Source: a virus (taxonomy: Duplodnaviria > Heunggongvirae > Uroviricota > Caudoviricetes). Taken from it: DNA of 64,000 nucleotides. The position numbers and the translations under genes were made by a program. The notes beneath the pieces are model-generated. The model worked only from the letters and a program-made list of their open reading frames with translations, had not been told where the DNA came from and did no database searches. The stretch spans positions 12,191 to 76,190 of the IMG/VR virus record IMGVR_UViG_3300022661_000085. One strand, given 5' to 3'. Below, one piece after another: positions 28,500-55,361 of this stretch; position 1 is the first letter of the stretch; each line of letters starts with the position of its first letter.

Positions 28500-29460
28500 T
28501 ATAGTATAGTCGAAAAGACATCCTACCATAGGAGAGATCGCGAGGCTTGGGAACAATCAACCCTTCTCTTCTGTGTTTTACGGATCAAGCGATCTTCTCC
28601 GATTATGGGCAAACTTCCCGAATGAGGGTGCCGAGGTGTTCGAAGGGAAAATGGCGTGTGGGTGAGGAGAGGTGGACACCCTCGCGCACGCGAAAAAAGG
28701 AAGGGTTTGGCGTGTAAAATCACCCCCTATGGTCGGCGATGTTATCAACGCCAAAAAGATAACATTCGGTCGGCAAGAAAAGGGCAGGTTCTCCCTATGG
28801 GAGAAAAACCGCCTTTCTTGAGGGGGTGGAGCGAGTGGGTTCGAGTTGGCGAGTTCCCTCTACGAGGGAAAAGGGCGATTTCCCCTCTCTCCTCGTCCTC
28901 TCCCCTCTATTCACCTCAGTGAATAGCCGTCCTCTCGTGCCGTCCGTCCGAGAGCCGAGAGCCGACCTTCTCTCGTCCCGTAAGGGACTCTCTTCCCTCC
29001 TTTGTCCTCCCCTCCCTCACCGCCTTGCCGACCTCTGCCGACCGACCGAAAGCCCCAACCCCATAAAGGGGGTTGCCGTCGTCAAGAAGGGGGTAATAGG
29101 GGATATTCTCCCCTATAGTCCCCTCCTTCAAAGTGCCGTTCCCGTAGGGAACGAGGTTGCCCTCCCGTGGGTAGCGCAGGCAGCGCCCGCCTCACGCCTC
29201 CGCATCACACGAGGCAAGCCGAGCCGAAACCGAAATTTTTTCCCCGAAGGGGAAGTCGAGCCGAAAGTCGAAATTCACAAAAAATTCACAAATCGGCTCT
29301 CCCCGTAAGGGGAGTCGAAGCGCCCAAATCCGCAACCCCTAAAGGGGTTGACGAATCGTGCCGACCGTGGTATCATAGATACAGGCGGCAACCCCGACCG
29401 CCGACCGACCGAGCCGACAACGGCAAGGCGAAAAATCAAAATCACACAGGGGAGAAAGGC
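28500..29460. other. GC-rich ORF-free hairpin-dense tract
   Basis: Many CCCC-N3/4-GGGG and CTCCC..GGGAG mini-hairpins, CCGACCGACC repeats and a polypyrimidine tract. Six-frame ORFs here are low-complexity and lack RBS. Confidence 0.5.
29348..29376 (+). promoter_or_regulatory. promoter-like unit upstream of the HTH gene
   Basis: ACCCCTAAAGGGGT inverted repeat, then TTGACG(29348-53), a 17-bp spacer, and TATCAT(29371-76). An ATG follows at 29470 with a GGGGAGAAAGG RBS. Confidence 0.4.
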
Positions 29461-30550: not shown

Positions 30551-30760
30551 TGCCGACCGAACCCCTAAAGGGGTTGACGGCAGTTCCCTTTGAGTGCCGA
30601 CCGACCGAGCCGACCGACAACGGCACACGGCACACGGCACACACGAAAGCGGAGCGACCGAACCCCTAAAGGGGTTGACGGCAGTTCCCTTTGAGTGCCG
30701 ACCGACCGAGCCGACCGACAACGGCACGGACGGAACGCACACGAAAAACACACACTCAGG
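30551..30760 (+). repeat. two tandem ~105-bp promoter-like units, paralogous to the 29330-29410 unit
   Basis: Each unit reads ACCCCTAAAGGGGTTGACGGCAGTTCCCTTTGAGTGCCGACCGACCGAGCCGACCGACAACGGCAC. Confidence 0.55.
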
Positions 30761-38606: not shown

Positions 38607-40004
38607 ATGGATTACATCGATACTCTATTAACCAATTCAGACGCAAATGCATTCTTCGGAGTGGAGAGTCATTCATTCCCTTTCGGTAGCACCGTCCTCG
38701 AAGCAACGCTTCGTTATGTTGCCGTGGTTCATTGCCCCGAGAACATCGAAAAGGTAAAGCTGATTAAGGTTCAGTCCTCTACCTTTAGCCCCGGTGCTCG
38801 CGGCAATGATTTCGCGGCTTCGATGATGGAGTCGTCTCACAATATTCTCATTGTAGAATCGAGAAACGGAGCAGAGTTGCCTTACATTGACAAAGAGGGC
38901 TGGATTGCATTAGATACGCCTCCGTATCCTGTTGCGCCTTTCTTGAGCAAGGCATCTGCCACAGCAGTATTCCTTAACAGGGATGCACAAAAGGTTATTC
39001 TTTTTGTTAAGCGTGTTACTGAAAGATGGATTGATGAGTTCTGCTCTTCCCTTTTCAGAATTCTTCCGTGGATCTATACGGAAAACTACAGACTCACGGA
39101 AGGTGAGCTCGCACTTTTCAAGGCGGCTCACGATAAAGATTCCCCAAAGTTCACCAAGGTGGTGAACGAGCTGGCTCAGAAGTATGATTTCAAATCTATG
39201 ATGATGGCAAGAACTCTCATCGGATGGAACAATCACTTCAGAGAAGCACAGATTCGTACCCTCGAAAGCAAGTGCGACAAGGCGAGAAACAATATTGCCG
39301 CACAAGAACAGGCTATCTCAACTTTGTATATGGAGCTTGATGCCCTGCTCTTTAATCTCAACGCGATGCTTAACCAACCCGCAGATACCAACGAAGCTCT
39401 GTTTAATTTCTTCAAAACCCACAAGCAGTTGGGAGTTTACAGAGTTCAGAACAGCTCGAACGGAAAGACGTTGTATTACACAATCACCGAAACGATTGAG
39501 TATTATGACGAGGATGCTTTCGTAAGAGTAAGAGATAACCCCAATTCTTACTTCAATACGAGCACTTGTGGTGCAGAAGTCAGAGAGGTGTTTAACGCTG
39601 TATTCGCTCTCAATAAGGGAAAGTTCAGAGTTGAGGCAATGTTTACGTTGAACAATCTTTCAAGCATCAATGCCCAATCCGGTATGAGAAGTGGTGGCTA
39701 TGATGAAACACACCTTCCTCATCCTCACATCTATCATCACGCTTGTCTCGGTGGAAACCGAGATGCAATCGCCAGATATATGAATGATGGCGACTGGGAT
39801 TTGGCAATCGAGCAGACAATCGCGGCTGCCAAGAACGTCAACTTTGGAGACTCGACCGTAGTATCCAAGATGTTGAGAGATGTCGCAGGTCGCTTTGAGT
39901 CTTGCCGTTGCATTATCGCAGATAACGGCACCGAAATGACTCCCAGAGAGTTCCTTAACTACATCAGAACGGCGGAGAACAATGAAGGAGATAACAATGG
40001 CTAA
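38607..40004 (+). CDS. E2-like ubiquitin-conjugating protein (C-terminal HPx...C active-site-like motif) with a large N-terminal domain
   Basis: 465 aa. 'LPHPHIYHHACLGGNRD' resembles the E2 'HPN...C' catalytic signature. Its stop overlaps the start of the JAB gene. Confidence 0.45.
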   Translation: MDYIDTLLTNSDANAFFGVESHSFPFGSTVLEATLRYVAVVHCPENIEKVKLIKVQSSTFSPGARGNDFAASMMESSHNILIVESRNGAELPYIDKEGWIALDTPPYPVAPFLSKASATAVFLNRDAQKVILFVKRVTERWIDEFCSSLFRILPWIYTENYRLTEGELALFKAAHDKDSPKFTKVVNELAQKYDFKSMMMARTLIGWNNHFREAQIRTLESKCDKARNNIAAQEQAISTLYMELDALLFNLNAMLNQPADTNEALFNFFKTHKQLGVYRVQNSSNGKTLYYTITETIEYYDEDAFVRVRDNPNSYFNTSTCGAEVREVFNAVFALNKGKFRVEAMFTLNNLSSINAQSGMRSGGYDETHLPHPHIYHHACLGGNRDAIARYMNDGDWDLAIEQTIAAAKNVNFGDSTVVSKMLRDVAGRFESCRCIIADNGTEMTPREFLNYIRTAENNEGDNNG

Positions 40005-41001
40005 GAGAATTTATTTGTCCGATGAGGACATTCGCGCAGCTCTTGAGAAAGCAACGCAGGAACTCCGCAATACGAAGTTTCATTCCGAGGATGTCAAGGT
40101 TACACTCCCTGCTCCTAAAGACAATCGCAAAGCAAAACTTGTTTTTGCAGCCAGTGCGTGGGTGAAAATGTACGCTTTAGTTCACAAATACGGCACTGAA
40201 GTCGAGTGGCACGGGCTTGTTGAGCGCAAAGGTGAGGCAGAATTCCTCATTAAGGACATCCTCATTTTCCCTCACGAGGTTTCCAGCGCAACGGTAGTAT
40301 CCGATCAGAGATGCTACGAAGAATGGCTTGACTCCCTCGATGACGAAACCTTCAACGCCTGTCGTTTCCACGGTCATAGCCACGTAAATATGGCTGTAAG
40401 CCCGTCAGGAGTTGATATGACATACAGGAAGAACATCTTGGGCAACTTCGCTACACCGGGTGCAGGAGATGATTACTTCTACATCTTCATCATCACAAAC
40501 AAAAAAGGCGATATCAGTGGCGAAATCTACGACTTGTCGAATAACGCTTTATATGCTACCAATGAAATCGAATTCTCGGTAATCGAGATTGAAGACATCA
40601 AGAGACGCATCAAGGACGCATTCCACGATGCCATTGAGGAATATGTAGACAGGCTCACTCAAAAGAACCTTACTTCGATCAATAGTAAGGGTGAGCTTAG
40701 CTTCACGATTTCCTCTGATGTCGAGGTAGAAGATGACTTCTTCCTTTCGGAACTTATCTCTGAAGCTGAAGGCGTAGTTGTAGAGCGTAGAGTTACTGCC
40801 CCCGTATCAACCTATCCTTATCACGGCACATACAACGGAAGCGCTCCGGCAGCGGCAACAACCCCGAAGACTACCTCATCCTTGCAGAGCAAACGTCCCG
40901 ACGTCGAAGACGACGATGATTATGGACGCCAAATTTCCCTCTATGACGACGATGATGAGGACGACTACTACAAACTCTACAGAGAGAGGTGCTCAGTATG
41001 A
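39982..41001 (+). CDS. JAB/MPN (JAMM) metalloprotease, deubiquitinase-like, with an acidic Asp-rich C-terminal tail
   Basis: 'E...HGHSHVNMAVSPSGVD' is the JAMM H-x-H-x7-S-x2-D motif, with an upstream Glu ('VEWHGLVERKGE'). The C-terminal reads 'DVEDDDDYG...YDDDDEDDYY'. Confidence 0.7.
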   Translation: MKEITMAKRIYLSDEDIRAALEKATQELRNTKFHSEDVKVTLPAPKDNRKAKLVFAASAWVKMYALVHKYGTEVEWHGLVERKGEAEFLIKDILIFPHEVSSATVVSDQRCYEEWLDSLDDETFNACRFHGHSHVNMAVSPSGVDMTYRKNILGNFATPGAGDDYFYIFIITNKKGDISGEIYDLSNNALYATNEIEFSVIEIEDIKRRIKDAFHDAIEEYVDRLTQKNLTSINSKGELSFTISSDVEVEDDFFLSELISEAEGVVVERRVTAPVSTYPYHGTYNGSAPAAATTPKTTSSLQSKRPDVEDDDDYGRQISLYDDDDEDDYYKLYRERCSV

Positions 41002-41672
41002 ATCTCGTAAAATCACAGGACTACTTCAATCCTATTGACGTAACCAGCCGATGTCACATCATCGGCTGTGGCTCCGTCGGCTCTACCGTGGCAGAGCTTC
41101 TTGTTCGCCTCGGTATCACAAAGATTTCCCTCTACGACTTTGACGTCGTTTCTGCTCACAATCTGGCGAACCAGATGTTTACCAATGCAGACATCAAGCG
41201 ACTCAAGGTTGATGCGGTAAAGGATATGCTGTGTGCAATTAACCCCGAAGCCGCGAACGACATCACTGTTTACCCCGAAGGGTGGACACAGAACACACGC
41301 TTGAGTGGCTATGTTTTCCTGTGCGTTGACAACATCGACCTCAGACGTGAAATCGCTATCAAGAACAAACCCAATCAGTCCATCAAAGCAATGTTTGATT
41401 TCAGAACTCGCCTTGAGGATGCTCAGCATTATGCCGCCGACTGGAAAGATTCCCGTATGGTGGACAATCTCATCCGCAGTATGGACTTCACTCACGAAGA
41501 AGCTAAAGCTTCGACTCCTGTAACGGCGTGCAACGTTGAAATGGGAGTAGCACCCACAGTAAGAATCATCTGTTCTTACGGAGTTTCTAACTTTATGAAC
41601 TTCATCAGAAAGAAGGAACTCAAGAAAATTGTTACGATAGACGCATTCAATTTTGATATTGATGCGTTTTAA
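40989..41672 (+). CDS. E1-like (ThiF/MoeB family) activating enzyme
   Basis: 'IIGCGSVGSTVAELLVRLGI..ISLYDFDVVSAHNLANQ' is the Rossmann GxGxxG and nucleotide-binding signature of E1/ThiF. The C-terminal Cys reads 'TACNVEMGVAP'. Its start overlaps the stop of the JAB gene. Confidence 0.75.
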   Translation: MLSMNLVKSQDYFNPIDVTSRCHIIGCGSVGSTVAELLVRLGITKISLYDFDVVSAHNLANQMFTNADIKRLKVDAVKDMLCAINPEAANDITVYPEGWTQNTRLSGYVFLCVDNIDLRREIAIKNKPNQSIKAMFDFRTRLEDAQHYAADWKDSRMVDNLIRSMDFTHEEAKASTPVTACNVEMGVAPTVRIICSYGVSNFMNFIRKKELKKIVTIDAFNFDIDAF

Positions 41673-41689
41673 GTAACGCTCCGATAAAG

Positions 41690-41770
41690 AAATTCTTATC
41701 TTCACGATAAGGCTTTGGATTACATTCAAAGTGCCAAGATGTCAGAGCGAGCGACGACGCTCAGAAGGGA
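41690..41770 (+). repeat. conserved two-hairpin intergenic element, copy B
   Basis: Reads CTTATC-TTCAC-GATAAG, then GCTTTGGATTACATTCAAAG, then TGCCAAGATGTCAGAGCG..CTCAGAAGGG. Confidence 0.55.
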
Positions 41771-41906
41771 TGCAATCCGGGATACAACCAGCTCAAGCGA
41801 GCGTGGTACTGCTGGTAACTCCCGTGCACACGAGAAACCACCACCGAACACCCCCTTATGAGCCAGTTTATTAACACATTGTTAATAAATAATTGTTCAA
41901 AACATC

Positions 41907-41935
41907 TTGACAAACTCCATCTTCAGGATTACCAT
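41907..41935 (+). promoter_or_regulatory. putative promoter of the RT gene
   Basis: TTGACA(41907-12), 17 bp, then TACCAT(41930-35). Confidence 0.35.
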
Positions 41936-41995
41936 CGCAGGTTCCGCGGTCTTCATGAGATGACAATAAATAAATGTTTATAGGAGATCCACATT

Positions 41996-43390
41996 ATGCC
42001 ATACATAACTATACCGGTGCGTCAGAAAGAGTACCAGATTTCTTTCGACGACATCTTAAACGGTATCAATGAGTCGTTCTTTGCAAGGATGATGGATGAT
42101 ACCTGTGATACAAGAACGGTATATCGTGACCACACCCCGCCCCGTCTGCTTGAAAAAATCAACATCGGGGCTATGGTTGGTATGCTTGAAAAGTTCAACA
42201 ACCGCCACCGTGAGTATTTCGATGTACCCAAAGAAAACCTTTACGAAACCTTTTATCTTATGAAAAAGAACAAGGGTTTCTCGGTTGTAGTGCGTGAGAT
42301 TTTCAAGACTCACAACGCTAACTCTGGCATTTCATACAGCGGCAAAGACGTTTATGCAGATGTGTTTGCTATCTTGAAGGGATTGCTTACCAATCACCCT
42401 TGCGCAGAACACAACAGAATCGAGCAGGAATCTCTTGCTAAGTGTGTTCAGTACCTAACTCCTCTCGGATTTGAGGTAAATGAAGAGAAAATCAAATCCT
42501 TCATCAAAGCAGGGTTCCGCCGCATAGACGCACCCCGTGCTGAGTTTAAGAGCGTTCTCACCGACCTCAAAATCACCTTCGAAAACAAACTGTTCGGAAG
42601 CTATCACACCTCTGCATTTGCTTATGTCAAGGGCAGATCTACGATAGATGCTCTTAAACGTCACCAGAGAAACAATTCGCGCTGGTTCCTCAAGCTTGAT
42701 TTTTCAAACTTCTTTGGTTCCACTACTCACGAATTTGTTCTTCGTCAGCTTAGCAGCATTTTCCCTTACAGCGAGATTGTTAAGAGCGAAAGAGGTCGCG
42801 AGGCTCTGTCGAAGGCATTATCTCTCTGTTTCCTGAACGGCGTTCTTCCGCAGGGTACTCCGTTTAGCCCTACGATCACGAATATTATGATGATCCCTAT
42901 CGATCACGCCATCGCTAAGATGTGCCGTGAGCATAGCCCTCATCTCTGCTATACAAGGTATGCAGACGACATCCTCATTTCGAGCGACCTGTCGTTCACG
43001 TGGGAAGTCGATAAGGAAGGTTCCGTACAGAATGAAATCCTTGACATTCTCCGTCGTTTCAATGTTCCCTTCTCTCTTAACACCGAGAAAACCAGATATG
43101 GTTCTTCCGCCGGTCGCAACTGGAACCTTGGACTGATGCTTAACAAGGATAACGAAATCACCATCGGTCACGAAAAGCGAAAGGCTTTCAAGGCGGCGGT
43201 GTATTCCTTCTTAAACGATTACACGCATCATCGTGTGTGGGACGTTGAGGAAGTGCAGGTTCTTGGTGGACAAATTGCATACTACAGAAATGTAGAAAAG
43301 GAAAACATCGATGCAATTATTCTGGCGTATAACCAGCGCTTCGGTGTTGATATGATGCAGATCATCAAGGACATCATAAGCAATAGATAA
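41996..43390 (+). CDS. reverse transcriptase (stand-alone; retron/Abi/DRT-like, not group II or DGR type)
   Basis: RT motifs in order: 'AYVKGRSTIDALKRH' (NAxxH-like), 'FLKLDFSNFFGS' (motif A), 'LPQGTPFSPTITN' (motif B'), 'YTRYADDILISS' (YADD), 'NTEKTRYG'. There is an N-terminal extension of about 160 aa and no maturase or endonuclease domain. Confidence 0.85.
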   Translation: MPYITIPVRQKEYQISFDDILNGINESFFARMMDDTCDTRTVYRDHTPPRLLEKINIGAMVGMLEKFNNRHREYFDVPKENLYETFYLMKKNKGFSVVVREIFKTHNANSGISYSGKDVYADVFAILKGLLTNHPCAEHNRIEQESLAKCVQYLTPLGFEVNEEKIKSFIKAGFRRIDAPRAEFKSVLTDLKITFENKLFGSYHTSAFAYVKGRSTIDALKRHQRNNSRWFLKLDFSNFFGSTTHEFVLRQLSSIFPYSEIVKSERGREALSKALSLCFLNGVLPQGTPFSPTITNIMMIPIDHAIAKMCREHSPHLCYTRYADDILISSDLSFTWEVDKEGSVQNEILDILRRFNVPFSLNTEKTRYGSSAGRNWNLGLMLNKDNEITIGHEKRKAFKAAVYSFLNDYTHHRVWDVEEVQVLGGQIAYYRNVEKENIDAIILAYNQRFGVDMMQIIKDIISNR

Positions 43391-43460
43391 AAAACTTAAA
43401 TAGAAATTTTGATATACATATCAAACGTCTGATTATATTAGACGTTCCGCGAGGGTTCTT

Positions 43461-43535
43461 ACGTAGTACCGTTCTGAAGTCAAAGCCTTAAGAAACTGCG
43501 TTTCTTAAGCCAGTGATTCAGAACCGTACTACAAC
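43461..43535 (+). other. long imperfect stem-loop (~34-bp stem, 5-nt loop) downstream of the RT
   Basis: CGTAGTACCGTTCTGAAGTCAAAGCCTTAAGAAA-CTGCG-TTTCTTAAGCCAGTGATTCAGAACCGTACTACAACG. A smaller hairpin AACGTCT-GATTATATT-AGACGTT sits just upstream (43424-43447). Confidence 0.55.
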
Positions 43536-43599
43536 GAGAATTTTGATCGAGCAGATGAAAATTCTCCTTTATTGTATTTAAGTTTAACAATTACAATCG

Positions 43600-43690
43600 T
43601 TATTTCTATCGAAAGATAGGGCTTTGGGTTACACTCAAAGTACCACATTGTGAGACTGAAGAAGGCACGCAGCAGGCGCCTCCTGCAGGA
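43600..43690 (+). repeat. conserved two-hairpin intergenic element, copy C
   Basis: Reads CTATC-GAAA-GATAG, then GCTTTGGGTTACACTCAAAG, then TACCACATTGTGAGACTGAAGAAGG. Confidence 0.55.
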
Positions 43691-43907
43691 AGCTTGGACA
43701 CTGAGAGCACCTCATCAGACTCCGATTCGGGCTTTAGGTAGCAAAACCACAGAAATACCTAATATTTATGTTGGGTTTTAGACACTTTTCAACAATCATT
43801 TGCACAAATCCAAATGATTTCTTACGGTTCGCCGAAGCTGTCTCTGCCCAGTCATGATCATTCCGCCCGCTGAATTTATACGTGGATTGTAATGGAAAGG
43901 AAAACAA

Positions 43908-44345
43908 ATGTATGAAGTAACTATTTACACGGACGGGGCGTGTTCAGGAAACCCCGGCGCTGGCGGTTGGGGCGCAATTCTCTTCTACGGTCAACACTCA
44001 AAGGAAATCAGTGGTGGCGTAGCAGACACGACAAACAACCGTATGGAGCTTCAGGCAGTTATAAGTGCACTGAAGTGCTTAAAAGCACCGAGCAAAGTTT
44101 CGCTGTACAGCGATTCTGCGTATGTAGTAAATGCATTTGCTCAAGGCTGGATTGATAACTGGCAAGCATCCGGCTGGAAAACCAAGGGGAGAAAACCCGT
44201 ACAAAACAAAGAATTGTGGCTTCAGTTGCTTGCCGCTATGAAGCCTCACCAAGTTAAATTCATAAAAGTTAAAGGTCATTCTGATAACCAATACAACAAC
44301 AGATGTGATGAGCTTGCAAGAATGGCAATCGAAAAATTGAAGTGA
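43908..44345 (+). CDS. rnhA: ribonuclease HI
   Basis: 'IYTDGACSGNPGAGGWGAIL...TNNRMELQAVISAL...LYSDSAYVVN...VKGHSDNQYNNRCDELAR' carries the RNase H catalytic D, E, D, D signature in canonical order. Confidence 0.8.
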   Translation: MYEVTIYTDGACSGNPGAGGWGAILFYGQHSKEISGGVADTTNNRMELQAVISALKCLKAPSKVSLYSDSAYVVNAFAQGWIDNWQASGWKTKGRKPVQNKELWLQLLAAMKPHQVKFIKVKGHSDNQYNNRCDELARMAIEKLK

Positions 44346-46385: not shown

Positions 46386-46404
46386 AAAAAGTTTAAATAG
46401 GTAT

Positions 46405-46470
46405 GTCGGATCCCCTTATACATAATCCGAGCTTTTGATTACATCAAAAGTGCCTCGATGTTGAAAGTGA
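46405..46470 (+). repeat. conserved two-hairpin intergenic element, copy D (longer stem, same TTACA loop)
   Basis: Reads TCGGAT-(13 nt)-ATCCGA, then GCTTTTGATTACATCAAAAG, then TGCCTCGATGTTGAAAGTG. Confidence 0.5.
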
Positions 46471-46579
46471 ATTCAAATAAAAACAGTCGCAAAGCGACTG
46501 TTTGGAGGCTGGTTTTATAACGAATGCACCTCCAAGAGGAGCATTCCAAACGGTATTTAAACGGAATAGGAGAGGTACT

Positions 46580-46990
46580 ATGGACAACGAAAAGATTGTT
46601 GATATGAACGAAGAAGAAATGGACGAACAGTTCATTGAGGTAAAGCTTGATATCCTGCTCACCAATGAGGATATCGATGATATTATGTGTGCTGCTCTTG
46701 AGGGCGGTATCAACTATTGGTGCGGCAAAGCAAAGGTTGTCGGCAAGTACCTTGGCGATTATGCAAGCGAGCAGATCTCTCGCGGCGGCACTCTGAAGCT
46801 GTACGATGGTGAGTCTGGTGAAGAGTTCGAACTCACAAAAGAAAAGTTCATCAAAGGACTTATCAAACACTTGGAAGATGGTCGTTCTGACCTTATCTCC
46901 CAAGGAATGATTGATACCGGCGCCCTTGATGCTTGTGACGCCGATGCAATCATTCAGTATGCGCTCTTCGACGAAGTAGTTTATGGATGA
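46580..46990 (+). CDS. acidic hypothetical protein (136 aa)
   Basis: Start is 'MDNEKIV' after a GGAGAGGTACT RBS. Confidence 0.35.
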   Translation: MDNEKIVDMNEEEMDEQFIEVKLDILLTNEDIDDIMCAALEGGINYWCGKAKVVGKYLGDYASEQISRGGTLKLYDGESGEEFELTKEKFIKGLIKHLEDGRSDLISQGMIDTGALDACDADAIIQYALFDEVVYG

Positions 46991-49546: not shown

Positions 49547-50017
49547 GTGTCGAAGCGCACATATATTTTATCAAATAAATCAGCTATTGAAGATTGGATC
49601 TTTTTAAATAAGAGCAAAGCTTGGATTGCCAGACAATTGCATTGCAAAATTGACACCCTAAACCGATATCTAAAAGAAATGAATATATCATATTCTGGAA
49701 ACCAAAGTGGCAAAGGGGTTAAGACATATGTTCCTTCGAGGTATATGCCATTTCAAGAATATATATCAAAATCCAAAAACGTTCATAGCGATCATATCCG
49801 AAAGAAACTATTAAGAGATGGATTAAAAAAGCACGAATGTGAACGATGTCATAATACTCATTGGAACGGACTTTTGATACCTCTCGAAGTACACCATAAA
49901 GACGGGGATAAGTCTAACAATGACTTGTCTAACTTGATGATGTTATGCCCCAACTGCCACGCTCAAACCGATTTTTACAGAGGCAGAAACAAGAATTCTG
50001 GGCGTATGGCGAAATAG
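49547..50017 (+). CDS. HNH endonuclease
   Basis: 'CERCHNTHWNG...EVHHKDGDKSNNDLSNLMMLCPNCH'. Confidence 0.75.
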   Translation: MSKRTYILSNKSAIEDWIFLNKSKAWIARQLHCKIDTLNRYLKEMNISYSGNQSGKGVKTYVPSRYMPFQEYISKSKNVHSDHIRKKLLRDGLKKHECERCHNTHWNGLLIPLEVHHKDGDKSNNDLSNLMMLCPNCHAQTDFYRGRNKNSGRMAK

Positions 50018-50084
50018 GCAGAACGCTACGGTCTTAAAAACCGTTGAATAAGATTCGTGCGGGTTCGAATCCCGCTATGCCCAC
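50014..50084 (+). pseudogene. degenerate tRNA-like element (T-arm + acceptor-like 3' strand + CCA, no D-arm)
   Basis: ..ACGGT-CTTAAAA-ACCGT..GCGGGTTCGAATCCCGC-TATGCCC-A-CCA. The 5' acceptor strand has 2 mismatches. Confidence 0.3.
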
Positions 50085-50597
50085 CAGATCGGTGCTACGA
50101 AGCCTGAATGCTGGCATTGAAAAGGAGAACAAACCAGCGGACGTTGGGATGAAAGCAGCAGTAGTAAATGGAGTTAGATGAACAGCCGATAAAGTGCGTG
50201 GGATGTTCCCCGCAAGCTACTCACCCATATGGAGAGATTTCCTGCAAAAGGTTGAAATTAGTAATCGTAAAACCCACGGCTTATTTCAATTTGCCGAAGA
50301 AATAAGCAACGAGATGGCGCACCACATACGCTCAAACCGCTAAGACTTTCATAAAACAGAACTTAGCAAGCTTAGAATGTGGAATTTTCAAGGGAAGGCA
50401 TTGGTGGGTTCTCTAAATTGCCACTGATGAGAAAGCCGAACAATAGGATTTAGTTCCGAAAAAGGCACTGGTGGAACAAACAGTACGACCTTGAAGCTAA
50501 GGTGTTCACCGACGGGACAGCCCCGCAACGGTTAAATAAGAGGCGAGCTAAAATTTCTCGGACGGCTTGAAGTACAAAAGCCGTAAACACATCATAC

Positions 50598-50687
50598 GGA
50601 GAGTTAAGCATAGTTGGCACTGCAGCGGTTTGCTAAACCGTTCGCCGTTTATTCGGCGCAGAGGTTCGAGTCCTCTACTCTCCGCCA
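50598..50687 (+). tRNA. tRNA-Ser (GCU), CCA encoded
   Basis: GGAGAGT..anticodon loop UUGCUAA..long variable arm CGCCG-TTTA-TTCGGCG..T-arm..ACTCTCC-G-CCA. Confidence 0.7.
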
Positions 50688-50689
50688 AT

Positions 50690-50761
50690 GTAAGTGTGGT
50701 GTAACGGTAACACGGCGGTCTCCAAAACCGTAAGATGGGGGTTCGAATCCCTCCGCTTATG
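50690..50761 (+). tRNA. tRNA-Trp (CCA anticodon)
   Basis: GTAAGTG..D-arm GTGT/ACAC..anticodon loop CUCCAAA..T-arm GGGGGTTCGAATCCCTC. Confidence 0.6.
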
Positions 50762-50762
50762 C

Positions 50763-50839
50763 GGGACGTTAGCTCAGTTGGTTAGAGCCACCGGCTCATA
50801 ACCGGTAGGTCTAAGGTTCGAGTCCTTAACGTCCCACCA
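50763..50839 (+). tRNA. tRNA-Met (CAU), CCA encoded
   Basis: GGGACGT-TA-GCTCAGTTGGTTAGAGC..ACCGG-CUCAUAA-CCGGT..ACGTCCC-A-CCA. Confidence 0.7.
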
Positions 50840-50987
50840 GCCCTGTTCATTCAAAAAGTTTCCTTGCAGGGGTTGTTAAAGGAAGCCTTCCGCTACGGTT
50901 AATGGTTCAAATTCTACCGGCAATAAAACAATAGAAGCCTCGCAAGGTGCAAGCGTTCCAATAAGGTGTTCAGCGGATTACATATAT

Positions 50988-51063
50988 GCTGGTGTAGCTC
51001 AGTTGGTAGAGCAGTTGATTTGTAATCAACCGGTCGTGGGTTCGAGTCCCACCATCAGCTCCA
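50988..51063 (+). tRNA. tRNA-Thr (UGU), CCA encoded
   Basis: GCTGGTG..GTTGA-UUUGUAA-TCAAC..GTGGGTTCGAGTCCCAC-CATCAGC-T-CCA. Confidence 0.7.
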
Positions 51064-51555
51064 AAAGTGTTGCAGATGTGAATATAGGCGGTGACAATGA
51101 CGCGACGAAAGTCGTGGTGCCAATATCGTGAGCACAATAACACGGGAGCTGCTCCTATGGCTGAAGGCTCCTTGCAACATTCATATAGATGAGAAGAAAG
51201 CAACTCTCTGCTGGCGGTGAAATGATATATCTTCCAGCCGTACTAAAACGTATTAGGCATTTGTATGACGTTAAGCCCTCTACCGACACGTTAGATCGGG
51301 GTAAGCACATCAGAGAGGATATAGTACTACGAGAGTGCAGATTACATACTTAGCGGGCATTTGGTAACTTAGCCGGTGGTGTGCATCGGTTAGCGAACTG
51401 CAAGAGCGTATAGGTTACTGAAGCGGCGCGGCAATCGTTTGCAAGCAAATAACTTTAATGGCTTGAGGAGTGGACGAGGTGTGGCTACGGAGACCAACCA
51501 ACGGTGTTGAGCGTAAGTAGAGTTGTTAACCTTGTTTGCTTGTGAACATTGTTAC
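51064..51555 (+). other. ~490-nt ORF-free segment inside the tRNA array (uncharacterised ncRNA candidate)
   Basis: No ORF with an RBS on either strand. Flanked by tRNA-Thr and tRNA-Ser. Confidence 0.3.
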
Positions 51556-51642
51556 GGAGAGTTAGCCTAATGGTAAGGCAGCAGACTTGAAATCTGCCGT
51601 CACCGAAAGGTGTTCAGGGTTCGAGTCCCTGACTCTCCGCCA
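51556..51642 (+). tRNA. tRNA-Ser (UGA), CCA encoded
   Basis: GGAGAGT..GCAGA-CUUGAAA-TCTGC..long variable arm..ACTCTCC-G-CCA. Confidence 0.7.
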
Positions 51643-51645
51643 TAT

Positions 51646-51729
51646 GCCAGAGTGGCGGAATTGGCAGACGCACCAGACTCAAAATCTGGCGGTGGCAACA
51701 CCGTGTGGGTTCAAGTCCCATCTTTGGTA
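51646..51729 (+). tRNA. tRNA-Leu (CAA), CCA encoded
   Basis: GCCAGAG..CCAGA-CUCAAAA-TCTGG..long variable arm..CTTTGGT-A-CCA. Confidence 0.65.
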
Positions 51730-51881
51730 CCAAGCGCTACGGCGGTCGGCGTCCTGAAAAGGTTAAAGATCGCCCCACATAAAATCTATGCACCTGTACC
51801 CTTGAAAAACTCGTATCAGGTATTTTACCGTGGATAAGCAGGTGCGTGTGAAATAAAAGGGTAAGAGAATAAGCACAACAC

Positions 51882-51956
51882 TGGGGTATCGCCAAGCGGT
51901 AAGGCATAGGACTTTGACTCCTACATTCGTTGGTTCGAATCCATCTACCCCAGCCA
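51882..51956 (+). tRNA. tRNA-Gln (UUG), CCA encoded
   Basis: TGGGGTA..TAGGA-CUUUGAC-TCCTA..TACCCCA-G-CCA. Confidence 0.7.
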
Positions 51957-52206
51957 AAGAAAGACACACACAGCAACTTTCAAATTAAATTAACAGGATA
52001 GTAAGTATAATGCTATGGGACGTGAGCTCCTAAAACTCACTGATTACTGGTTTAAGAACCAGATGACTGTCGGCAAAGTCGAATGATTGAGAATTAAACA
52101 TTCTCTGTTGCTCTTACGATGTAGCCTGTAGTAAGAAGCGACGTCGCAAGGCTATATCCTCACCCAACGTCATTGTCCGGGAAGGATGGCGGTGTGTCTT
52201 GAATAT

Positions 52207-52282
52207 GTTCGCGTAGCTCAGCCGGTAGAGCACCTGACTTTTAATCAGGGAGTCGGAGGTTCGAGTCCTCTCGCGAACACCA
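52207..52282 (+). tRNA. tRNA-Lys (UUU), CCA encoded
   Basis: GTTCGCG-TA-GCTCAGCCGGTAGAGC..CCTGA-CUUUUAA-TCAGG..CGCGAAC-A-CCA. Confidence 0.7.
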
Positions 52283-52285
52283 TTT

Positions 52286-52360
52286 GTGGGTATCGTCTAA
52301 CGGCTAAGACACCTGCCTTCCAAGCAGGGGATGCGAGTTCGATTCTCGTTACTCACTCCA
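52286..52360 (+). tRNA. tRNA-Gly (UCC), CCA encoded
   Basis: GTGGGTA..CCTGC-CUUCCAA-GCAGG..TACTCAC-T-CCA. Confidence 0.7.
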
Positions 52361-52361
52361 C

Positions 52362-52444
52362 GCCCGTGTGGTGGAATTGGTAGACACGCCAGACTTAGGA
52401 TCTGGTTCGTAAGAGTGAGAGTTCGAGTCTCTCCACGGGTACCA
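52362..52444 (+). tRNA. tRNA-Leu (UAG), CCA encoded
   Basis: GCCCGTG..CCAGA-CUUAGGA-TCTGG..long variable arm..CACGGGT-A-CCA. Confidence 0.7.
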
Positions 52445-52446
52445 AT

Positions 52447-52521
52447 CGGGGCATAGTTCAATGGTAGAGCTCTCGCTTTGGGAGCGAGATGTTGTGGGTT
52501 CGAGTCCCGTTGCTCCGACCA
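52447..52521 (+). tRNA. tRNA-Pro (UGG), CCA encoded
   Basis: CGGGGCA-TA-GTTCAATGGTAGAGC..CTCGC-UUUGGGA-GCGAG..TGCTCCG-A-CCA. Confidence 0.7.
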
Positions 52522-53057: not shown

Positions 53058-53869
53058 TGATTAAACTAAACGACCACGTTATCGAACAGGATTGCTTTGG
53101 TGACGGCACTTTAAAGTGTGCCCTGCCGCCGATCAATTCCGCAGGCAGTCTTATCGTTATCACTTGGTGTTACGATAACGATGCAGAGTTATTTACTCTC
53201 TGGAGCCTTGTTTGCTATATCAGGGACAGATATCCCGACATTACGCTGAACTTGGCTATGCCGTACATTCCTCACGCAAGACAAGACCGTGAGGTAAGCC
53301 ATAGACTATTCACCTTGAAGTATTTTGCAAAGGCAATCAATGCTATGAACTTCCGCAAGGTGTTCGTGCTGGATCCCCACTCGGATGTTTCTCTCGCGGT
53401 ACTTGACAGAGTAGTACCTATGCGCTCCATCTTTTATCCCGATACCGATCTCACGAGGAATAGCGGTGATGTTTATACGGTTATGTACCCTGATGCCGGT
53501 GCGGCTAAGAAGTACGGCTCTCAAGAAGATGTCGCTAATCCTATCATCGGAAACAAGCATCGCAACGAAGAAGGAAGAATCGACGGATATGAGCTTCTTA
53601 ACTTTGTTGAGGGGACTAAGAACGTCATCATCCGTGATGACATTTGTAGTTATGGTGGCACATTTGTTGCCGCCGCAAAAGAACTGAAGAAGCGCGGTGT
53701 CGAGAAGATTATTCTCTACATTTCGCACTGTGAAAACAATATTTTGAAAGGCGAAGTTCTTGACTGGGTTGATATGGTGTATACAACCGACAGTATCTGC
53801 ACTGTCCAGCACCCCAAAATTCAGATTATCAAGAGCTTTAGAGAAGGTAGAGTCAATGTACCGAATTAA
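53057..53869 (+). CDS. ribose-phosphate pyrophosphokinase (Prs) homolog; candidate ADP-ribose pyrophosphokinase of a phage NAD+ reconstitution pathway
   Basis: 'VLDPHSD' and the PRPP-binding loop 'IIRDDICSYGGTF'. It overlaps the downstream NAMPT-like gene by 14 nt. Confidence 0.6.
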   Translation: MIKLNDHVIEQDCFGDGTLKCALPPINSAGSLIVITWCYDNDAELFTLWSLVCYIRDRYPDITLNLAMPYIPHARQDREVSHRLFTLKYFAKAINAMNFRKVFVLDPHSDVSLAVLDRVVPMRSIFYPDTDLTRNSGDVYTVMYPDAGAAKKYGSQEDVANPIIGNKHRNEEGRIDGYELLNFVEGTKNVIIRDDICSYGGTFVAAAKELKKRGVEKIILYISHCENNILKGEVLDWVDMVYTTDSICTVQHPKIQIIKSFREGRVNVPN

Positions 53870-55361
53870 CCCTTTGCTTGAAAGCGATTTCTACAAGCAG
53901 GTTCACTGGAACCAGTACCCAAAGAACGTTACAAAGGTTGTGAGCTACTTCACGCCTCGTATGAGCCGCCTTAAGAATGTGGGAGAAAACCACATCATTA
54001 TGTTCGGTTTACAGTCGTTCATCAAGGAGTTCTTAATCGAGGACTTCAACGAGTTCTTCTTCGCTCGCTCAAAGGAAGAGGTTATGGCAGAGTACAAGCA
54101 CTTGATGGATAACACCCTCGGTGCAGGGCTCTACGGAGAGGAAAGAATTGCAGAGCTTCACGAGCTCGGTTATCTCCCTCTCGAAATTAAGGCACTCCCC
54201 GAAGGAACGAGAGTCCCCGTAGGAGTTCCTATGTTTGAGATCAGCAACACACATCCCAAGTTTGCTTGGCTCACCAATGCGATTGAGTCGGTAATCAGTT
54301 GCGAGATGTGGCACGCTATGATTTCTGCGAATGTCGGATATATGTACCGTCAGATCGTAAACAAGTATTACGATTTGAGTTGTGATGACAATATCCCCCG
54401 CAGAAAAGCTCTTGGTGACTTCTCGATGAGAGGTCAGGAGTCCAAGAGAAGCGCATACAAATCATCTGCAGCGTGGCTTCTCTCTTTCGTAAACACCGCT
54501 ACCGTTCCCGCAATCGACTATCTTGAGAGATATTATGGTTGCGATTGCTCAAAGGAAGAGGTTGGCTTTGGCGCCGTTTCCACCGAGCACTCCGTAATGT
54601 GTAGCAATTTCGCGGTTGACGGCGATGAAATCACAATGATTAAGCGCTTGCTCACCGAAATTTACCCCAACACCTCTTTCAGTATGGTCAGCGATAGCTA
54701 CGACTACTGGAATCTCGTAGACAATCTTCTTCCCTTGTGCAAGAACGAGATTATGAATCACAACGGATGTCTTCTCGTGAGAGGCGACTCCGGCGATCCT
54801 GTAGAGGTCGTAACGCAAACCGTGTTCCACCTTTGGAACATCTTCGGCGGAACTGTTAATTCGAAGGGCTACAAGGTTCTCGATCCCCACGTCAAGGCAA
54901 TCTATGGCGATAGCATTACACCACAGAGAGCCAAAGCAATCTACAGTATCCTCGTTGAAAACGGGTTTGCCGCAAGCAATGTTTCTCTTGGCGTCGGAAG
55001 CTTTTCGATGCAGTGCTTGGAAACTATCGATTTATTCAACGGAGATCCCTTGACCACATACAACCCCTACACCAGAGACACCTTTGGCATTGCCATCAAG
55101 GCAACTTATGCTGAAGACGAGAACGGTGCGCCTATCCCGATTTTTAAGAACCCCAAGGAATCTTCCTTCAAGAAGTCCCACAAGGGTTGTGTAATCGTTA
55201 AGGAGCACGAGGGCGAGCTTGTGGCAGAAGATATGCACACCTACCTCGAAACCGTTGAGGACGAAAACAATCTTATGGAGTTTGTTTTCTGCGACGGTCA
55301 GATGGAGAAGGAATATTCCCTCAAGGAAATCCGCGACAGACTCCACGGAGGTAAGTTCTGA
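53856..55361 (+). CDS. nicotinamide phosphoribosyltransferase (NAMPT/NadV) family protein
   Basis: Start is 'MYRINPLLESDFYKQVHWNQYP', which matches the NAMPT N-terminal signature (NPLL..D.YK..H..QYP), after a GAGAAGG RBS. About 500 aa. Confidence 0.7.
   Translation: MYRINPLLESDFYKQVHWNQYPKNVTKVVSYFTPRMSRLKNVGENHIIMFGLQSFIKEFLIEDFNEFFFARSKEEVMAEYKHLMDNTLGAGLYGEERIAELHELGYLPLEIKALPEGTRVPVGVPMFEISNTHPKFAWLTNAIESVISCEMWHAMISANVGYMYRQIVNKYYDLSCDDNIPRRKALGDFSMRGQESKRSAYKSSAAWLLSFVNTATVPAIDYLERYYGCDCSKEEVGFGAVSTEHSVMCSNFAVDGDEITMIKRLLTEIYPNTSFSMVSDSYDYWNLVDNLLPLCKNEIMNHNGCLLVRGDSGDPVEVVTQTVFHLWNIFGGTVNSKGYKVLDPHVKAIYGDSITPQRAKAIYSILVENGFAASNVSLGVGSFSMQCLETIDLFNGDPLTTYNPYTRDTFGIAIKATYAEDENGAPIPIFKNPKESSFKKSHKGCVIVKEHEGELVAEDMHTYLETVEDENNLMEFVFCDGQMEKEYSLKEIRDRLHGGKF

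What the first reader, a model, noticed from the sequence alone, without database searches (positions are those of the whole stretch)
41673..44345. Stand-alone YADD reverse transcriptase followed by RNase HI, flanked by structured repeats and a long downstream stem-loop
The 464-aa RT has retron/Abi-like motifs (an NAxxH-like block, motif A 'LDFSNFF', 'QGTPFSP', YADD, 'KT'). It lacks maturase or endonuclease domains and lacks the DGR-type 'SQ', so it is neither a group II intron RT nor a DGR RT. It is bracketed by copies B and C of the conserved two-hairpin element. A ~75-nt imperfect stem-loop (43461-43535) lies 70 nt downstream, and the next gene is a canonical RNase HI. RT + structured ncRNA + RNase H is the layout of retron or defence-associated RT systems, which make cDNA from an ncRNA template. 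Here it is phage-encoded.
Basis: partly seen in the sequence, partly recalled or inferred. Interest (0 to 1): 0.7.

Follow-up and report, generated by a model that had tools for sequence, protein, structure and literature searches.

The report
Phage retron-like RT with multiple template RNAs
A large family of gut phages carries a retron-type reverse transcriptase surrounded by several copies (five in this window) of a structured RNA built like a retron template; a natural one-enzyme, many-template arrangement of this kind turned up in none of my literature searches.

Summary
A 464-aa YADD reverse transcriptase (41996-43390) is followed by RNase HI (43908-44345) in a tailed-phage genome, and the 43463-43532 stem-loop exists.

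By HMM, PDB sequence and predicted fold, the RT sits with retron RTs of types I-A/II-A. Its NAXXH and VTG signatures are degenerate, and it has a 170-aa N-terminal extension.

The main revision is that the "two-hairpin repeats" and the "long stem-loop" are one RNA family. There are five copies, all on the + strand:
- A: 34223-34526
- B: 41679-41986
- R: 43392-43585
- C: 43590-43893
- D: 46391-46562

Each copy has:
- a 9-12-nt 5' arm (a1) followed by an invariant unpaired G;
- two covarying hairpins, then a variable body (a 70-nt hairpin in R);
- a second G, then a 3' arm (a2) complementary to a1.

Terminal inverted repeats with two opposing Gs are the published retron msr/msd signature. In relatives the elements cluster on both sides of the RT gene, sometimes as ORF-free tandem arrays. 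a2 usually lies just upstream of the next gene's ribosome-binding site.

RNase H adjacency holds only in the closest relatives. An upstream 465-aa / 339-aa / ThiF(E1) trio always accompanies the RT. cDNA synthesis is inferred, not shown.

Verdict: a new, multi-template, phage-borne retron variant of unknown biological role.

The parts
41996..43390 (+). Retron-clade reverse transcriptase, 464 aa. RT core covers residues ~170-450, preceded by an N-terminal extension of ~170 aa of unknown function.
   Evidence: ORF. Best PADLOC model is RT_II-A at 1.7e-44, and all of the top 25 are retron RT models. NCBIfam retron_St85_RT scores 167 bits (cut-off 235); group II scores 60 bits. The top 13 PDB profile hits are retron RTs. 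The AF2 model has pLDDT 84.5, and its best Foldseek matches are retron I-A/Ec83/Ec78/Ec86 RTs, TM up to 0.73. Catalytic residues are invariant in the family.
43392..43585 (+). Element R, the most retron-like copy.
   Evidence: MFE -70.4 kcal/mol, z = -9.2. In 7 orthologues, 27 of 46 predicted pairs show compensatory changes, and a1/a2 switches from A-U to G-C. Model R1 scores 177 bits on the + strand against 32 on the - strand.
41679..41986 (+). Element B, filling the ThiF-RT gap. a1 41679-41688; G 41689; SL1 41694-41712; SL2 41713-41731; variable body; opposing G 41976; a2 41977-41986, overlapping the RT Shine-Dalgarno sequence (ATG at 41996).
   Evidence: R2 scores 56.7 bits. The a1/a2 arms and the a2+AGGAG arrangement are conserved in 9 orthologues. 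The region folds with z = -4.3.
43590..43893 (+). Element C, in tandem 4 nt after R. a1 43590-43598; G 43599; SL1 43604-43621; SL2 43622-43640; variable body; opposing G 43884; a2 43885-43893, 14 nt before the RNase H ATG.
   Evidence: R2 scores 58.6 bits. In the 11-sequence alignment only a1/a2, SL1 and SL2 are conserved, and they covary. The MFE closes with a1/a2, z = -3.5.
43908..44345 (+). RNase HI, 145 aa.
   Evidence: PF00075 at 1.6e-46. NCBIfam RNase HI equivalog at 209 bits, above its cut-off of 160. It is adjacent to the RT only in the closest relatives.
34223..34526 (+). Element A, a paralogue of C. a1 34223-34231; G 34232; SL1 34238-34254; SL2 34255-34275; opposing G 34517; a2 34518-34526. 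It lies about 140 nt downstream of a perfect TTGACA-17-TATAAT promoter (34052-34080) and 61 nt upstream of ORF 34588.
   Evidence: R2 scores 59.1 bits. MFE z = -5.75 and closes with a1/a2. Promoter.
46391..46562 (+). Element D, a paralogue of R. a1 46391-46399; G 46400; SL1 46406-46430; SL2 46431-46451; two short hairpins; opposing G 46553; a2 46554-46562, 17 nt before the ATG at 46580.
   Evidence: Model R1 scores 54 bits, E = 1.5e-10, and R2 scores 50.7 bits. MFE z = -6.3.
38607..41672 (+). Conserved upstream gene block: a 465-aa protein (38607-40004), a 339-aa protein (39982-41001) and a ThiF/E1-like adenylyltransferase (40989-41672). This is context; it may be functionally linked to the RT.
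   Evidence: ThiF: PF00899 at 2.6e-24, plus PADLOC E1-E2 models. All 80 ThiF-anchored viral loci carry the RT 0.3-3 kb downstream. The 339-aa ORF has a JAMM-like HxH...S..D motif by eye only, with no HMM or PDB support.

Best explanation
This is a phage-borne, non-canonical retron: one retron-clade RT served by a family of msr/msd-like RNAs.

What the sequence shows:
- The RT is conserved with intact catalytic residues.
- Five elements in this window, and several per related phage, share one plan: a1 arm, invariant unpaired G, two hairpins, variable body, second G, a2 arm paired to a1.
- They lie only on the coding strand.
- They are concentrated immediately on both sides of the RT gene.

What I infer:
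- The elements are transcribed within the long + strand transcript.
- The RT docks on the SL1-SL2 handle of each element. The a1/a2 helix presents the first G, whose 2'-OH primes cDNA synthesis. Synthesis starts at the opposing G and runs back through the variable body, which is the long hairpin in R.
- Phage RNase HI, or the host enzyme in relatives where none lies nearby, removes the copied RNA. The product is a set of different branched RNA-DNA molecules.

What I infer more weakly: the elements run from the upstream stop codon to 4-17 nt before the next ribosome-binding site, and B overlaps the RT's own. Copying plus RNase H would therefore also cut and remodel the mRNA just ahead of the downstream cistron. 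That would couple reverse transcription to expression of RT, the RNase H operon and other genes, in the way a type VI retron RNA controls translation of its effector. What the DNA products do for the phage (decoy, regulator or sensor) is unknown.
For: RT identity:
- Best PADLOC, NCBIfam and PDB matches are all retron RTs (II-A/St85, I-A Ec83/Ec78), far above group II, DRT, Abi and DGR.
- The predicted fold matches retron RTs best.

RNA family:
- Core model R2 finds exactly 5 copies in 64 kb, at 51-59 bits against a next-best 18 bits, all on the + strand.
- 13 of the 14 core pairs show changes on both sides (the closing pair stays G.U), and 99% of cells pair, against 36-49% when partners are slid.
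- SL2's closing pair is G.U in 44 of 46 sequences, which fits RNA of the + strand.

Long-range helix:
- The 9 nt just before the G have their reverse complement 170-370 nt downstream in essentially all 63 elements. Scores reach 8 or more in 35 of 63, against 9 of 189 offset controls.
- Arm sequences differ widely between copies.
- The base before a2 is G in 60 of 63.
- Every window copy closes with a1/a2 in an unconstrained MFE.

Match to the published retron definition:
- Terminal inverted repeats, 1-3 msr hairpins, a long msd hairpin and 'two opposing G residues' in the I-A/II-A1 consensus (PMC7736814).
- An inverted repeat plus an invariant priming G (PMC12475279).

Linkage to the RT:
- All 353 profile hits in 1.98 Mb of related loci are on the RT strand.
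- 184 of 206 hits lie within 1 kb of the RT ends, although flanks average 3-4 kb.
- 61 of 143 non-redundant loci have one on each side. None lies in the 6 kb upstream of ThiF.
- L152 has three ORF-free tandem elements before the RT.

Precedents:
- The type VI retron hyRNA, whose terminal repeats enclose an RBS and whose RT-DNA derepresses translation (10.1101/2025.10.22.683967).
- Engineered arrays listed (PMC10370050, title and abstract only) combine several retron ncRNAs in one cell.
Against: - No product is observed; everything about priming and cDNA is inference.
- The two RT signatures said to define retrons are degenerate: NAXXH reads ALKRH and VTG reads NLG. The St85 model score is below its curated cut-off.
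- Only R has the long msd-type hairpin. In A, B and C the ~230-nt body is conserved in neither sequence nor structure.
- In some R orthologues SL4 plus the U-rich tail looks like an intrinsic terminator that would end transcripts just before a2 (by eye).
- Elements that exactly fill intercistronic gaps next to ribosome-binding sites would also suit an RT-independent role.
- No RT-less relatives were found, so co-occurrence of element and RT could not be tested independently of shared ancestry.
- The core alignment was seeded by a script that required hairpins, which inflates the percent-paired figure.
Confidence: 0.55

Rival explanations
1. The elements are RT-independent intercistronic RNA modules of the phage's long transcript. 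They would act as processing, stability or translation-control sites, as the RNase III sites between T7 or SP82 early genes do. Their position next to the RT would then reflect only where transcription units begin and end.
For: - In the window, elements B, R and D start 1-6 nt after the upstream stop codon.
- a2 is followed within 45 nt by SD + ATG in at least 36 of 63 cases.
- B's a2 overlaps the RT ribosome-binding site.
- The bodies are unconserved.
- A sits in the leader behind the strongest promoter.
- Copies A and D are 7 kb and 3 kb from the RT.
Against: - This does not explain the retron-specific a1-G...G-a2 geometry.
- It does not explain ORF-free tandem arrays (R-C in the window; three in L152).
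- It does not explain why 89% of detected copies lie within 1 kb of a retron-type RT.
- A 9-12-bp helix is short for RNase III (from my own knowledge).
Confidence: 0.22
2. Same parts, different purpose: a retron-type defence or superinfection-exclusion system carried by the phage. The always-adjacent 465-aa / 339-aa / ThiF(E1) proteins would be the effector module, and the RT-DNA would act as sensor or antitoxin, as in bacterial tripartite retrons.
For: - The RT lies downstream of the three-gene block in 80 of 80 loci.
- ThiF matches E1 domains of CBASS Cap2-type and 6A-MBL defence proteins.
- Known retrons nearly always carry an adjacent effector (PMC7736814).
Against: - The block is fixed at one syntenic position across a lineage whose RTs have diverged to ~40% identity. 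That pattern resembles a core gene set more than a mobile defence island.
- None of the 13 retron types I recall has an E1/JAB-type effector.
- Multiple templates are not a feature of defence retrons.
- The 465-aa and 339-aa proteins match no defence model.
Confidence: 0.12
3. The hairpin pairs are transcription elements: put-like antiterminator RNAs, or terminators and attenuators. On this view the long stem-loop and SL4 simply terminate the RT transcript.
For: - Two adjacent hairpins recall HK022 put (from my own knowledge).
- SL4 followed by a U-rich tract in R orthologues resembles an intrinsic terminator.
Against: - The terminator scan finds no + strand terminator inside the elements beyond the short SL1 hairpin of A, and totals are near the shuffle expectation.
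- The a1/a2 helix with opposing Gs covaries across 63 copies.
- The 70-nt hairpin is conserved in shape but not in sequence across orthologues, and has no U-tract.
Confidence: 0.05
4. The RT belongs to a degenerate group II intron or a diversity-generating retroelement.
For: Weak similarity to group II RT/maturase: 60 bits against a cut-off of 300.
Against: - No group II intron RNA in Rfam scans.
- No domain besides RVT_1 in Pfam, so no maturase or endonuclease domain.
- No template/variable repeat pair: the element bodies match nothing else in the window.
- Retron RTs score far higher.
Confidence: 0.01

Closest known systems
Retrons of types I-A / II-A (Ec78, Ec83, St85 family)
   Same: - The RT is closest in sequence and predicted fold.
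- The RNA is contiguous with the RT gene and has terminal inverted repeats.
- It has an unpaired G at the inner end of the helix facing a second G, and short msr-type hairpins.
- Element R also has a long msd-type hairpin (definition in PMC7736814 and PMC12475279).
   Different: - Encoded as a syntenic gene of ~100-kb tailed phages, not in bacterial defence islands.
- At least 5 RNA copies per RT, on both sides of the gene and in tandem, instead of one upstream copy.
- NAXXH and VTG reduced to ...H and ..G.
- 170-aa N-terminal extension.
- No recognised effector.
- Most copies lack a conserved long hairpin and end at the next gene's ribosome-binding site.
Type VI retron hybrid RNA (Retron-Vpa2; bioRxiv 10.1101/2025.10.22.683967)
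   Same: A retron RNA whose a1/a2-like terminal repeats bracket translation signals, with reverse transcription needed to derepress translation of the downstream protein.
   Different: There the effector ORF lies inside the folded RNA, in a single copy, in a bacterial defence operon with an HTH partner. Here a2 lies upstream of the ribosome-binding site, there are many copies, and the downstream genes are ordinary phage genes that include the RT itself.
Engineered retron arrays ('multitrons', PMC10370050)
   Same: Several retron ncRNAs arranged together in one cell (title and abstract only).
   Different: Synthetic constructs for genome editing. My searches found no natural counterpart.
Retron-like RT of Staphylococcus jumbo phages (MarsHill, PALS_2; bioRxiv 10.1101/2020.12.14.422802)
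   Same: [quoted passage not shown]
- A long upstream non-coding region, which I find holds five tandem ~170-210-nt units. Each has a conserved hairpin, a variable GC-rich hairpin and flanking inverted repeats.
   Different: The RT domain is only 24% identical and the N-terminal domains do not align. The RNA units are a different sequence family: R2 finds nothing. I did not establish the opposing-G geometry there.
Intercistronic RNase III sites of T7/SP82 early mRNA and HK022 put RNA
   Same: Multi-copy conserved hairpin modules between early phage genes, on the transcribed strand (from my own knowledge).
   Different: From my own knowledge, neither has a 170-370-nt-range closing helix with opposing Gs, and neither is associated with an RT. 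No Rfam family matched.

Membership tests
Retron | RT falls in the retron / retron-like clade | tested here: met
   All top PADLOC models are retron RTs, the best being RT_II-A at 1.7e-44. The top 13 PDB profile hits are retron RTs. Foldseek's best matches are retron I-A, Ec83, Ec78 and Ec86. Caveat: NCBIfam retron_St85_RT scores 167 bits, below its curated 235, and no tree was built.
Retron | NAXXH motif between RT2 and RT3 | tested here: not met
   In the alignment to the Ec83 RT, LDNAKIH corresponds to IDALKRH. Only the H is kept. The family consensus is DAVKRH.
Retron | VTG triplet in RT7 (region Y) | tested here: not met
   Ec83 RHVTGV corresponds to NWNLGL. Only the G, reported as the most conserved residue, is kept (PMC7736814). 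RNWNLG is nearly invariant in the family.
Retron | Structured ncRNA contiguous with the RT gene | tested here: met
   B ends 9 nt before the RT ATG and R starts 1 nt after its stop codon. In relatives, 184 of 206 detected copies lie within 1 kb of the RT.
Retron | [quoted passage not shown] | tested here: met
   Found in all 5 window copies and in essentially all 63 examined, with different arm sequences per copy. The helix appears in unconstrained MFE folds.
Retron | Invariant branching G at the inner end of a1, facing a second G (I-A/II-A1 consensus) | tested here: met
   G is invariant in 46 of 46 aligned cores. The base 5' of a2 is G in 60 of 63. Whether this G actually primes was not tested.
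Retron | msr with 1-3 short hairpins and msd with one long stable stem-loop | tested here: inconclusive
   Two msr-type hairpins are present in every copy. A long hairpin is present in R and its orthologues, but no conserved one exists in A, B or C, and D has only short ones.
Retron | Production of branched msDNA | not testable with these tools
   Requires expression and nucleic-acid analysis.
Retron | Adjacent effector (tripartite system) | tested here: inconclusive
   The neighbours match no known retron effector model. However, a conserved 465-aa / 339-aa / ThiF block always lies upstream.
Group II intron | Ribozyme domains around the ORF, and a maturase/En domain in the protein | tested here: not met
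   No Rfam group II hit in the window at gathering threshold, nor at E <= 10 in 41600-44000. TIGR04416 scores 60 bits against a cut-off of 300. Pfam finds RVT_1 only.
Diversity-generating retroelement | Template repeat near the RT with a diverged variable repeat in a target gene | tested here: not met
   The element bodies and RT flanks have no second match in the 64-kb window. The DGR RT is a distant structural hit only. The rest of the genome was not available.
UG/DRT and Abi reverse transcriptases | RT groups with DRT/Abi models | tested here: not met
   Drt2 scores 43 bits, Drt3a 34.5 and AbiA 27, against 167 for the retron St85 model.

The most novel reading that the evidence does not exclude
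A natural multi-template retron is a core module of a widespread family of gut Clostridia phages. One RT primes on the branching G of five or more 5'-UTR/intercistronic RNAs. Together with RNase H it converts parts of the phage's own polycistronic mRNA into branched RNA-DNA. Reverse transcription would thus serve as a routine step of phage gene expression or host takeover rather than as bacterial immunity.
Probability: 0.2. Interest if true: 0.92.

Novelty: new variant of a known kind. Interest (0 to 1): 0.78.

Why it matters
- Retrons are understood as bacterial anti-phage systems with one RT, one template RNA and one effector. Here the same RNA architecture and RT lineage appear on the virus side, at a fixed syntenic position in every related locus examined (over 500 IMG/VR stretches encode the RT), with several templates per enzyme and no recognisable toxin.
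- If the RT does copy these RNAs, phages make their own msDNA-like molecules. That opens questions about decoys against retron or ssDNA-sensing immunity, and about reverse transcription as a regulator of phage mRNAs.
- It would also provide a natural multiplexed retron scaffold for editing technology.
- The related layout in cultured Staphylococcus jumbo phages makes the idea testable at the bench.

Tried and rejected
- **Rfam.** The whole window at gathering threshold returned only tRNAs. At E <= 10 in 41600-44000 there was nothing credible, so no known msr, group II, ribozyme or Y-RNA family matches.
- **DGR.** No second copy of any element body exists in the window.
- **INPHARED phage collection.** No nucleotide match. 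The best protein hit is 39.5% identical over 62% of the RT.
- **RT-less relatives.** I looked for them to separate element from enzyme, but all 80 ThiF-anchored loci and all 6 contigs holding an exact SL2 pattern carry the RT, so the test was uninformative.
- **Concerted evolution of SL2 loops within genomes**, as a sign of a shared reader. Paralogue distance was 0.31 against a cross-genome 0.37, which is not convincing.
- **Rule-based element finder.** Too unspecific at low thresholds (131 hits on + against 39 on -). I replaced it with profile searches.
- **Promoter and terminator scans.** Totals near shuffle expectation.
- **JAB assignment of the 339-aa ORF.** It rests on a motif seen by eye and has no HMM or PDB support.
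- **Literature.** Five searches for phage-encoded or multi-template retrons found only engineered arrays and the Staphylococcus jumbo-phage note.
- **Hammerhead reading.** Considered for a CUGAUGAG near element A, by eye in the sequence, and dropped because the motif is in one copy only and has no stem II.


Full report
**What is there.** The window is part of a tailed-phage genome. Tape-measure, portal and large-terminase genes lie on the minus strand. A 7.4-kb stretch around the RT is 100% identical to a 106-kb contig binned with a sheep-colon Clostridia MAG. ORF 41996-43390 encodes a 464-aa protein with RVT_1. It contains LDFSNFF, QGTPFSP and YADD, and the catalytic Asp and YADD are invariant in 23 homologues. 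ORF 43908-44345 is a bona fide RNase HI, at 209 bits against an NCBIfam cut-off of 160.

**What kind of RT.**
- All 25 best PADLOC models are retron RTs: RT_II-A at 1.7e-44 and RT_I-A at 4e-36.
- NCBIfam ranks the models as follows: retron St85 167 bits, Ec67 92, group II 60, Drt2 43, AbiA 27.
- A family profile hits the solved retron RTs Ec83, Ec78, Kva2, Ec67 and Ec86 before anything else.
- An AlphaFold model (pLDDT 84.5) superposes best on retron I-A, Ec83, Ec78 and Ec86 RTs.
- Residues 1-170 are an extension with no match.
- The two motifs used to define retron RTs are degenerate. NAXXH is ALKRH and VTG is NLG, keeping only the H and the G (definitions in PMC7736814 and PMC12475279).
- The St85 score is below NCBI's cut-off.

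I therefore call it retron-clade but not a canonical member.

**The RNA.** Aligning the region after the RT stop codon in the closest relatives showed a conserved arm, (A/G)CTTAAATA, followed by G. Next come two hairpins, a long hairpin of variable sequence and a further hairpin. The last part is the complementary arm TATTTAAG(C/T), with an A-U to G-C switch between phages. RNAalifold predicts 46 pairs, 27 of them with compensatory changes. The window copy folds at -70.4 kcal/mol, z = -9.2.

A core model was built from 46 sequences. In that alignment G, A and T of G-N-N-A-T are invariant, and SL2 is GCUUU...AAAGU with a G.U closing pair in 44 of 46. With filters off, the model finds exactly five copies in the window, all on the + strand, at 51-59 bits against a next-best 18.

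In 63 elements from the window and relatives:
- the 9 nt before the G have their reverse complement 170-370 nt downstream (a score of 8 or more in 35 of 63, against 9 of 189 offset controls);
- arm sequences differ from copy to copy;
- the base just before that arm is G in 60 of 63.

All window copies close with this helix in unconstrained folds. Terminal inverted repeats, one to three msr hairpins, a long msd hairpin and 'two opposing G residues' are how retron I-A/II-A1 transcripts are described (PMC7736814). Those are the same retron types the RT resembles most.

**Limits of the resemblance.** Only R and its orthologues have the long hairpin. In A, B and C the ~230-nt body is conserved in neither sequence nor structure, and D has short hairpins only. 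The seed sequences for the core alignment were picked by a script that demanded hairpins, so the 99% pairing figure is inflated. The flanking sequence conservation, the a1/a2 helix and the opposing G were not selected for.

**Linkage to the RT.**
- More than 500 IMG/VR stretches and 67 stretches in species-representative genomes encode relatives of the RT.
- Two iterated nhmmer profiles over 230 loci (1.98 Mb) gave 353 hits, every one on the RT strand.
- I then took the 143 non-redundant loci with at least 900 nt on both sides of the RT. Of these, 94 have a detectable copy: 79 within 900 nt upstream, 72 within 600 nt downstream and 61 on both sides.
- 184 of 206 hits lie within 1 kb of the RT, although flanks average 3.9 and 3.2 kb. 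Sensitivity is incomplete, because L152 was missed.
- In ThiF-centred 12.6-kb loci, none of 32 covariance-model hits lies in the 6 kb upstream of ThiF.
- L152 has three tandem elements with no plausible ORF between ThiF and the RT. In the window, R is followed by C after 4 nt.

So the elements are not simply one leader per gene.

**Relation to genes.** In the window, elements B, R and D start 1-6 nt after the upstream stop codon, and A lies in a promoter-proximal leader. B, C and D end 9-17 nt before the next ATG, A ends 61 nt before it, and R ends 4 nt before C. B's a2 overlaps the RT Shine-Dalgarno sequence, an arrangement kept in 8 of the 9 aligned orthologues. At least 36 of 63 elements have SD + start within 45 nt of a2. 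One perfect sigma-70 promoter precedes A. I saw no convincing + strand terminator between 34 and 47 kb, which is consistent with a long transcript carrying all five.

**RNase H and neighbours.** RNase HI follows the RT only in the nearest relatives. In a few other lineages it lies between ThiF and the RT or several kb upstream, and in most loci none was detected within the fetched flanks. By contrast, a 465-aa protein, a 339-aa protein and a ThiF/E1-like enzyme precede the RT in every ThiF-anchored locus, 80 of 80. No RT-less relatives were found, so the dependence of the elements on the RT cannot be separated from common descent.

**Mechanism.** The anatomy is shown. The following steps are inferred:
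1. The RT binds SL1-SL2.
2. It primes from the 2'-OH of the first G.
3. It copies the body starting at the opposing G.
4. RNase H removes the template.

Because of where a2 sits, this would also process the mRNA ahead of the next cistron. The type VI retron hyRNA is a precedent for reverse transcription controlling translation. Engineered arrays combine several retron ncRNAs in one cell (title and abstract only).

The main rival is an RT-independent intercistronic processing or translation element. It explains the placement, but not the a1-G...G-a2 geometry, the ORF-free arrays or the clustering on a retron-type RT. A defence or exclusion role with the upstream E1-containing block as effector cannot be excluded.

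**Novelty.** Five literature searches found no natural multi-template or lytic-phage retron of this kind. The nearest is a note that Staphylococcus jumbo phages encode a retron-like RT with an N-terminal domain and a 1.2-kb upstream non-coding region. In PALS_2 that region holds five tandem units of conserved hairpin plus variable hairpin. This suggests that template arrays next to phage RTs may be more general. I rate this a new variant of a known kind, of high interest, with function unproven.

Noticed in passing
L231 (Staphylococcus phage PALS_2, MN091626.1) 1560-2870: The 1.28-kb non-coding region upstream of this jumbo phage's retron-type RT holds five tandem ~170-210-nt units. Each has a conserved hairpin (ATCATATGAATACGTATGAT), a variable GC-rich hairpin and flanking inverted repeats. 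The layout matches the one found here, but the RNA sequence family is different.
   Followed up: partly
window 38607-41672 and L151-L230: A 465-aa protein, a 339-aa protein (JAMM-like HxH...S..D motif by eye only) and a ThiF/E1-like enzyme form an overlapping operon. It sits immediately upstream of the RT in 80 of 80 ThiF-anchored viral loci, so it may be a functional partner of the RT.
   Followed up: partly
window 35501-35616 and 35624-35741: Two Rfam tRNA hits of unusual length (116 and 118 nt) that ARAGORN does not call. They lie next to tRNA-Tyr and just upstream of a DUF2828/TROVE-like 'RNA-binding protein' gene (36159-37676, phrog_850). This may be a Ro60/Y-RNA-like pair, or intron-containing tRNAs.
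   Followed up: partly
L152 6725-7765: Three complete elements in tandem fill the 1.1-kb ThiF-RT gap, with only a 4-codon ORF after the second. A fourth follows the RT.
   Followed up: yes
window 30554-30626 and 30655-30727: Two 100% identical 73-nt copies lie 101 nt apart. They are rich in CCGACCGA motifs, which also occur at 29401.
   Followed up: no
window 28221, 34125, 34528, 37765: The motif CCATATTTAGACACT recurs in intergenic regions of the + strand block, and a TTTAGACAC variant lies inside element C. It is a candidate phage-specific promoter or regulatory site.
   Followed up: no
window 34863-35500: About 640 nt have no convincing ORF. The stretch lies between the small zinc-finger-like ORF downstream of element A and the tRNA-like genes.
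   Followed up: no
window 50000-52520 and 53760-55361: A cluster of 13 tRNA genes is followed about 1.2 kb downstream by a nicotinamide phosphoribosyltransferase gene. This is typical auxiliary content of large virulent phages.
   Followed up: no
window vs L086 (JAFVSI010000063.1): Coordinate mapping of the identical contig implies that the window runs past that contig's end. This is consistent with a circularly permuted ~106-kb genome or with a different assembly of the same phage.
   Followed up: no
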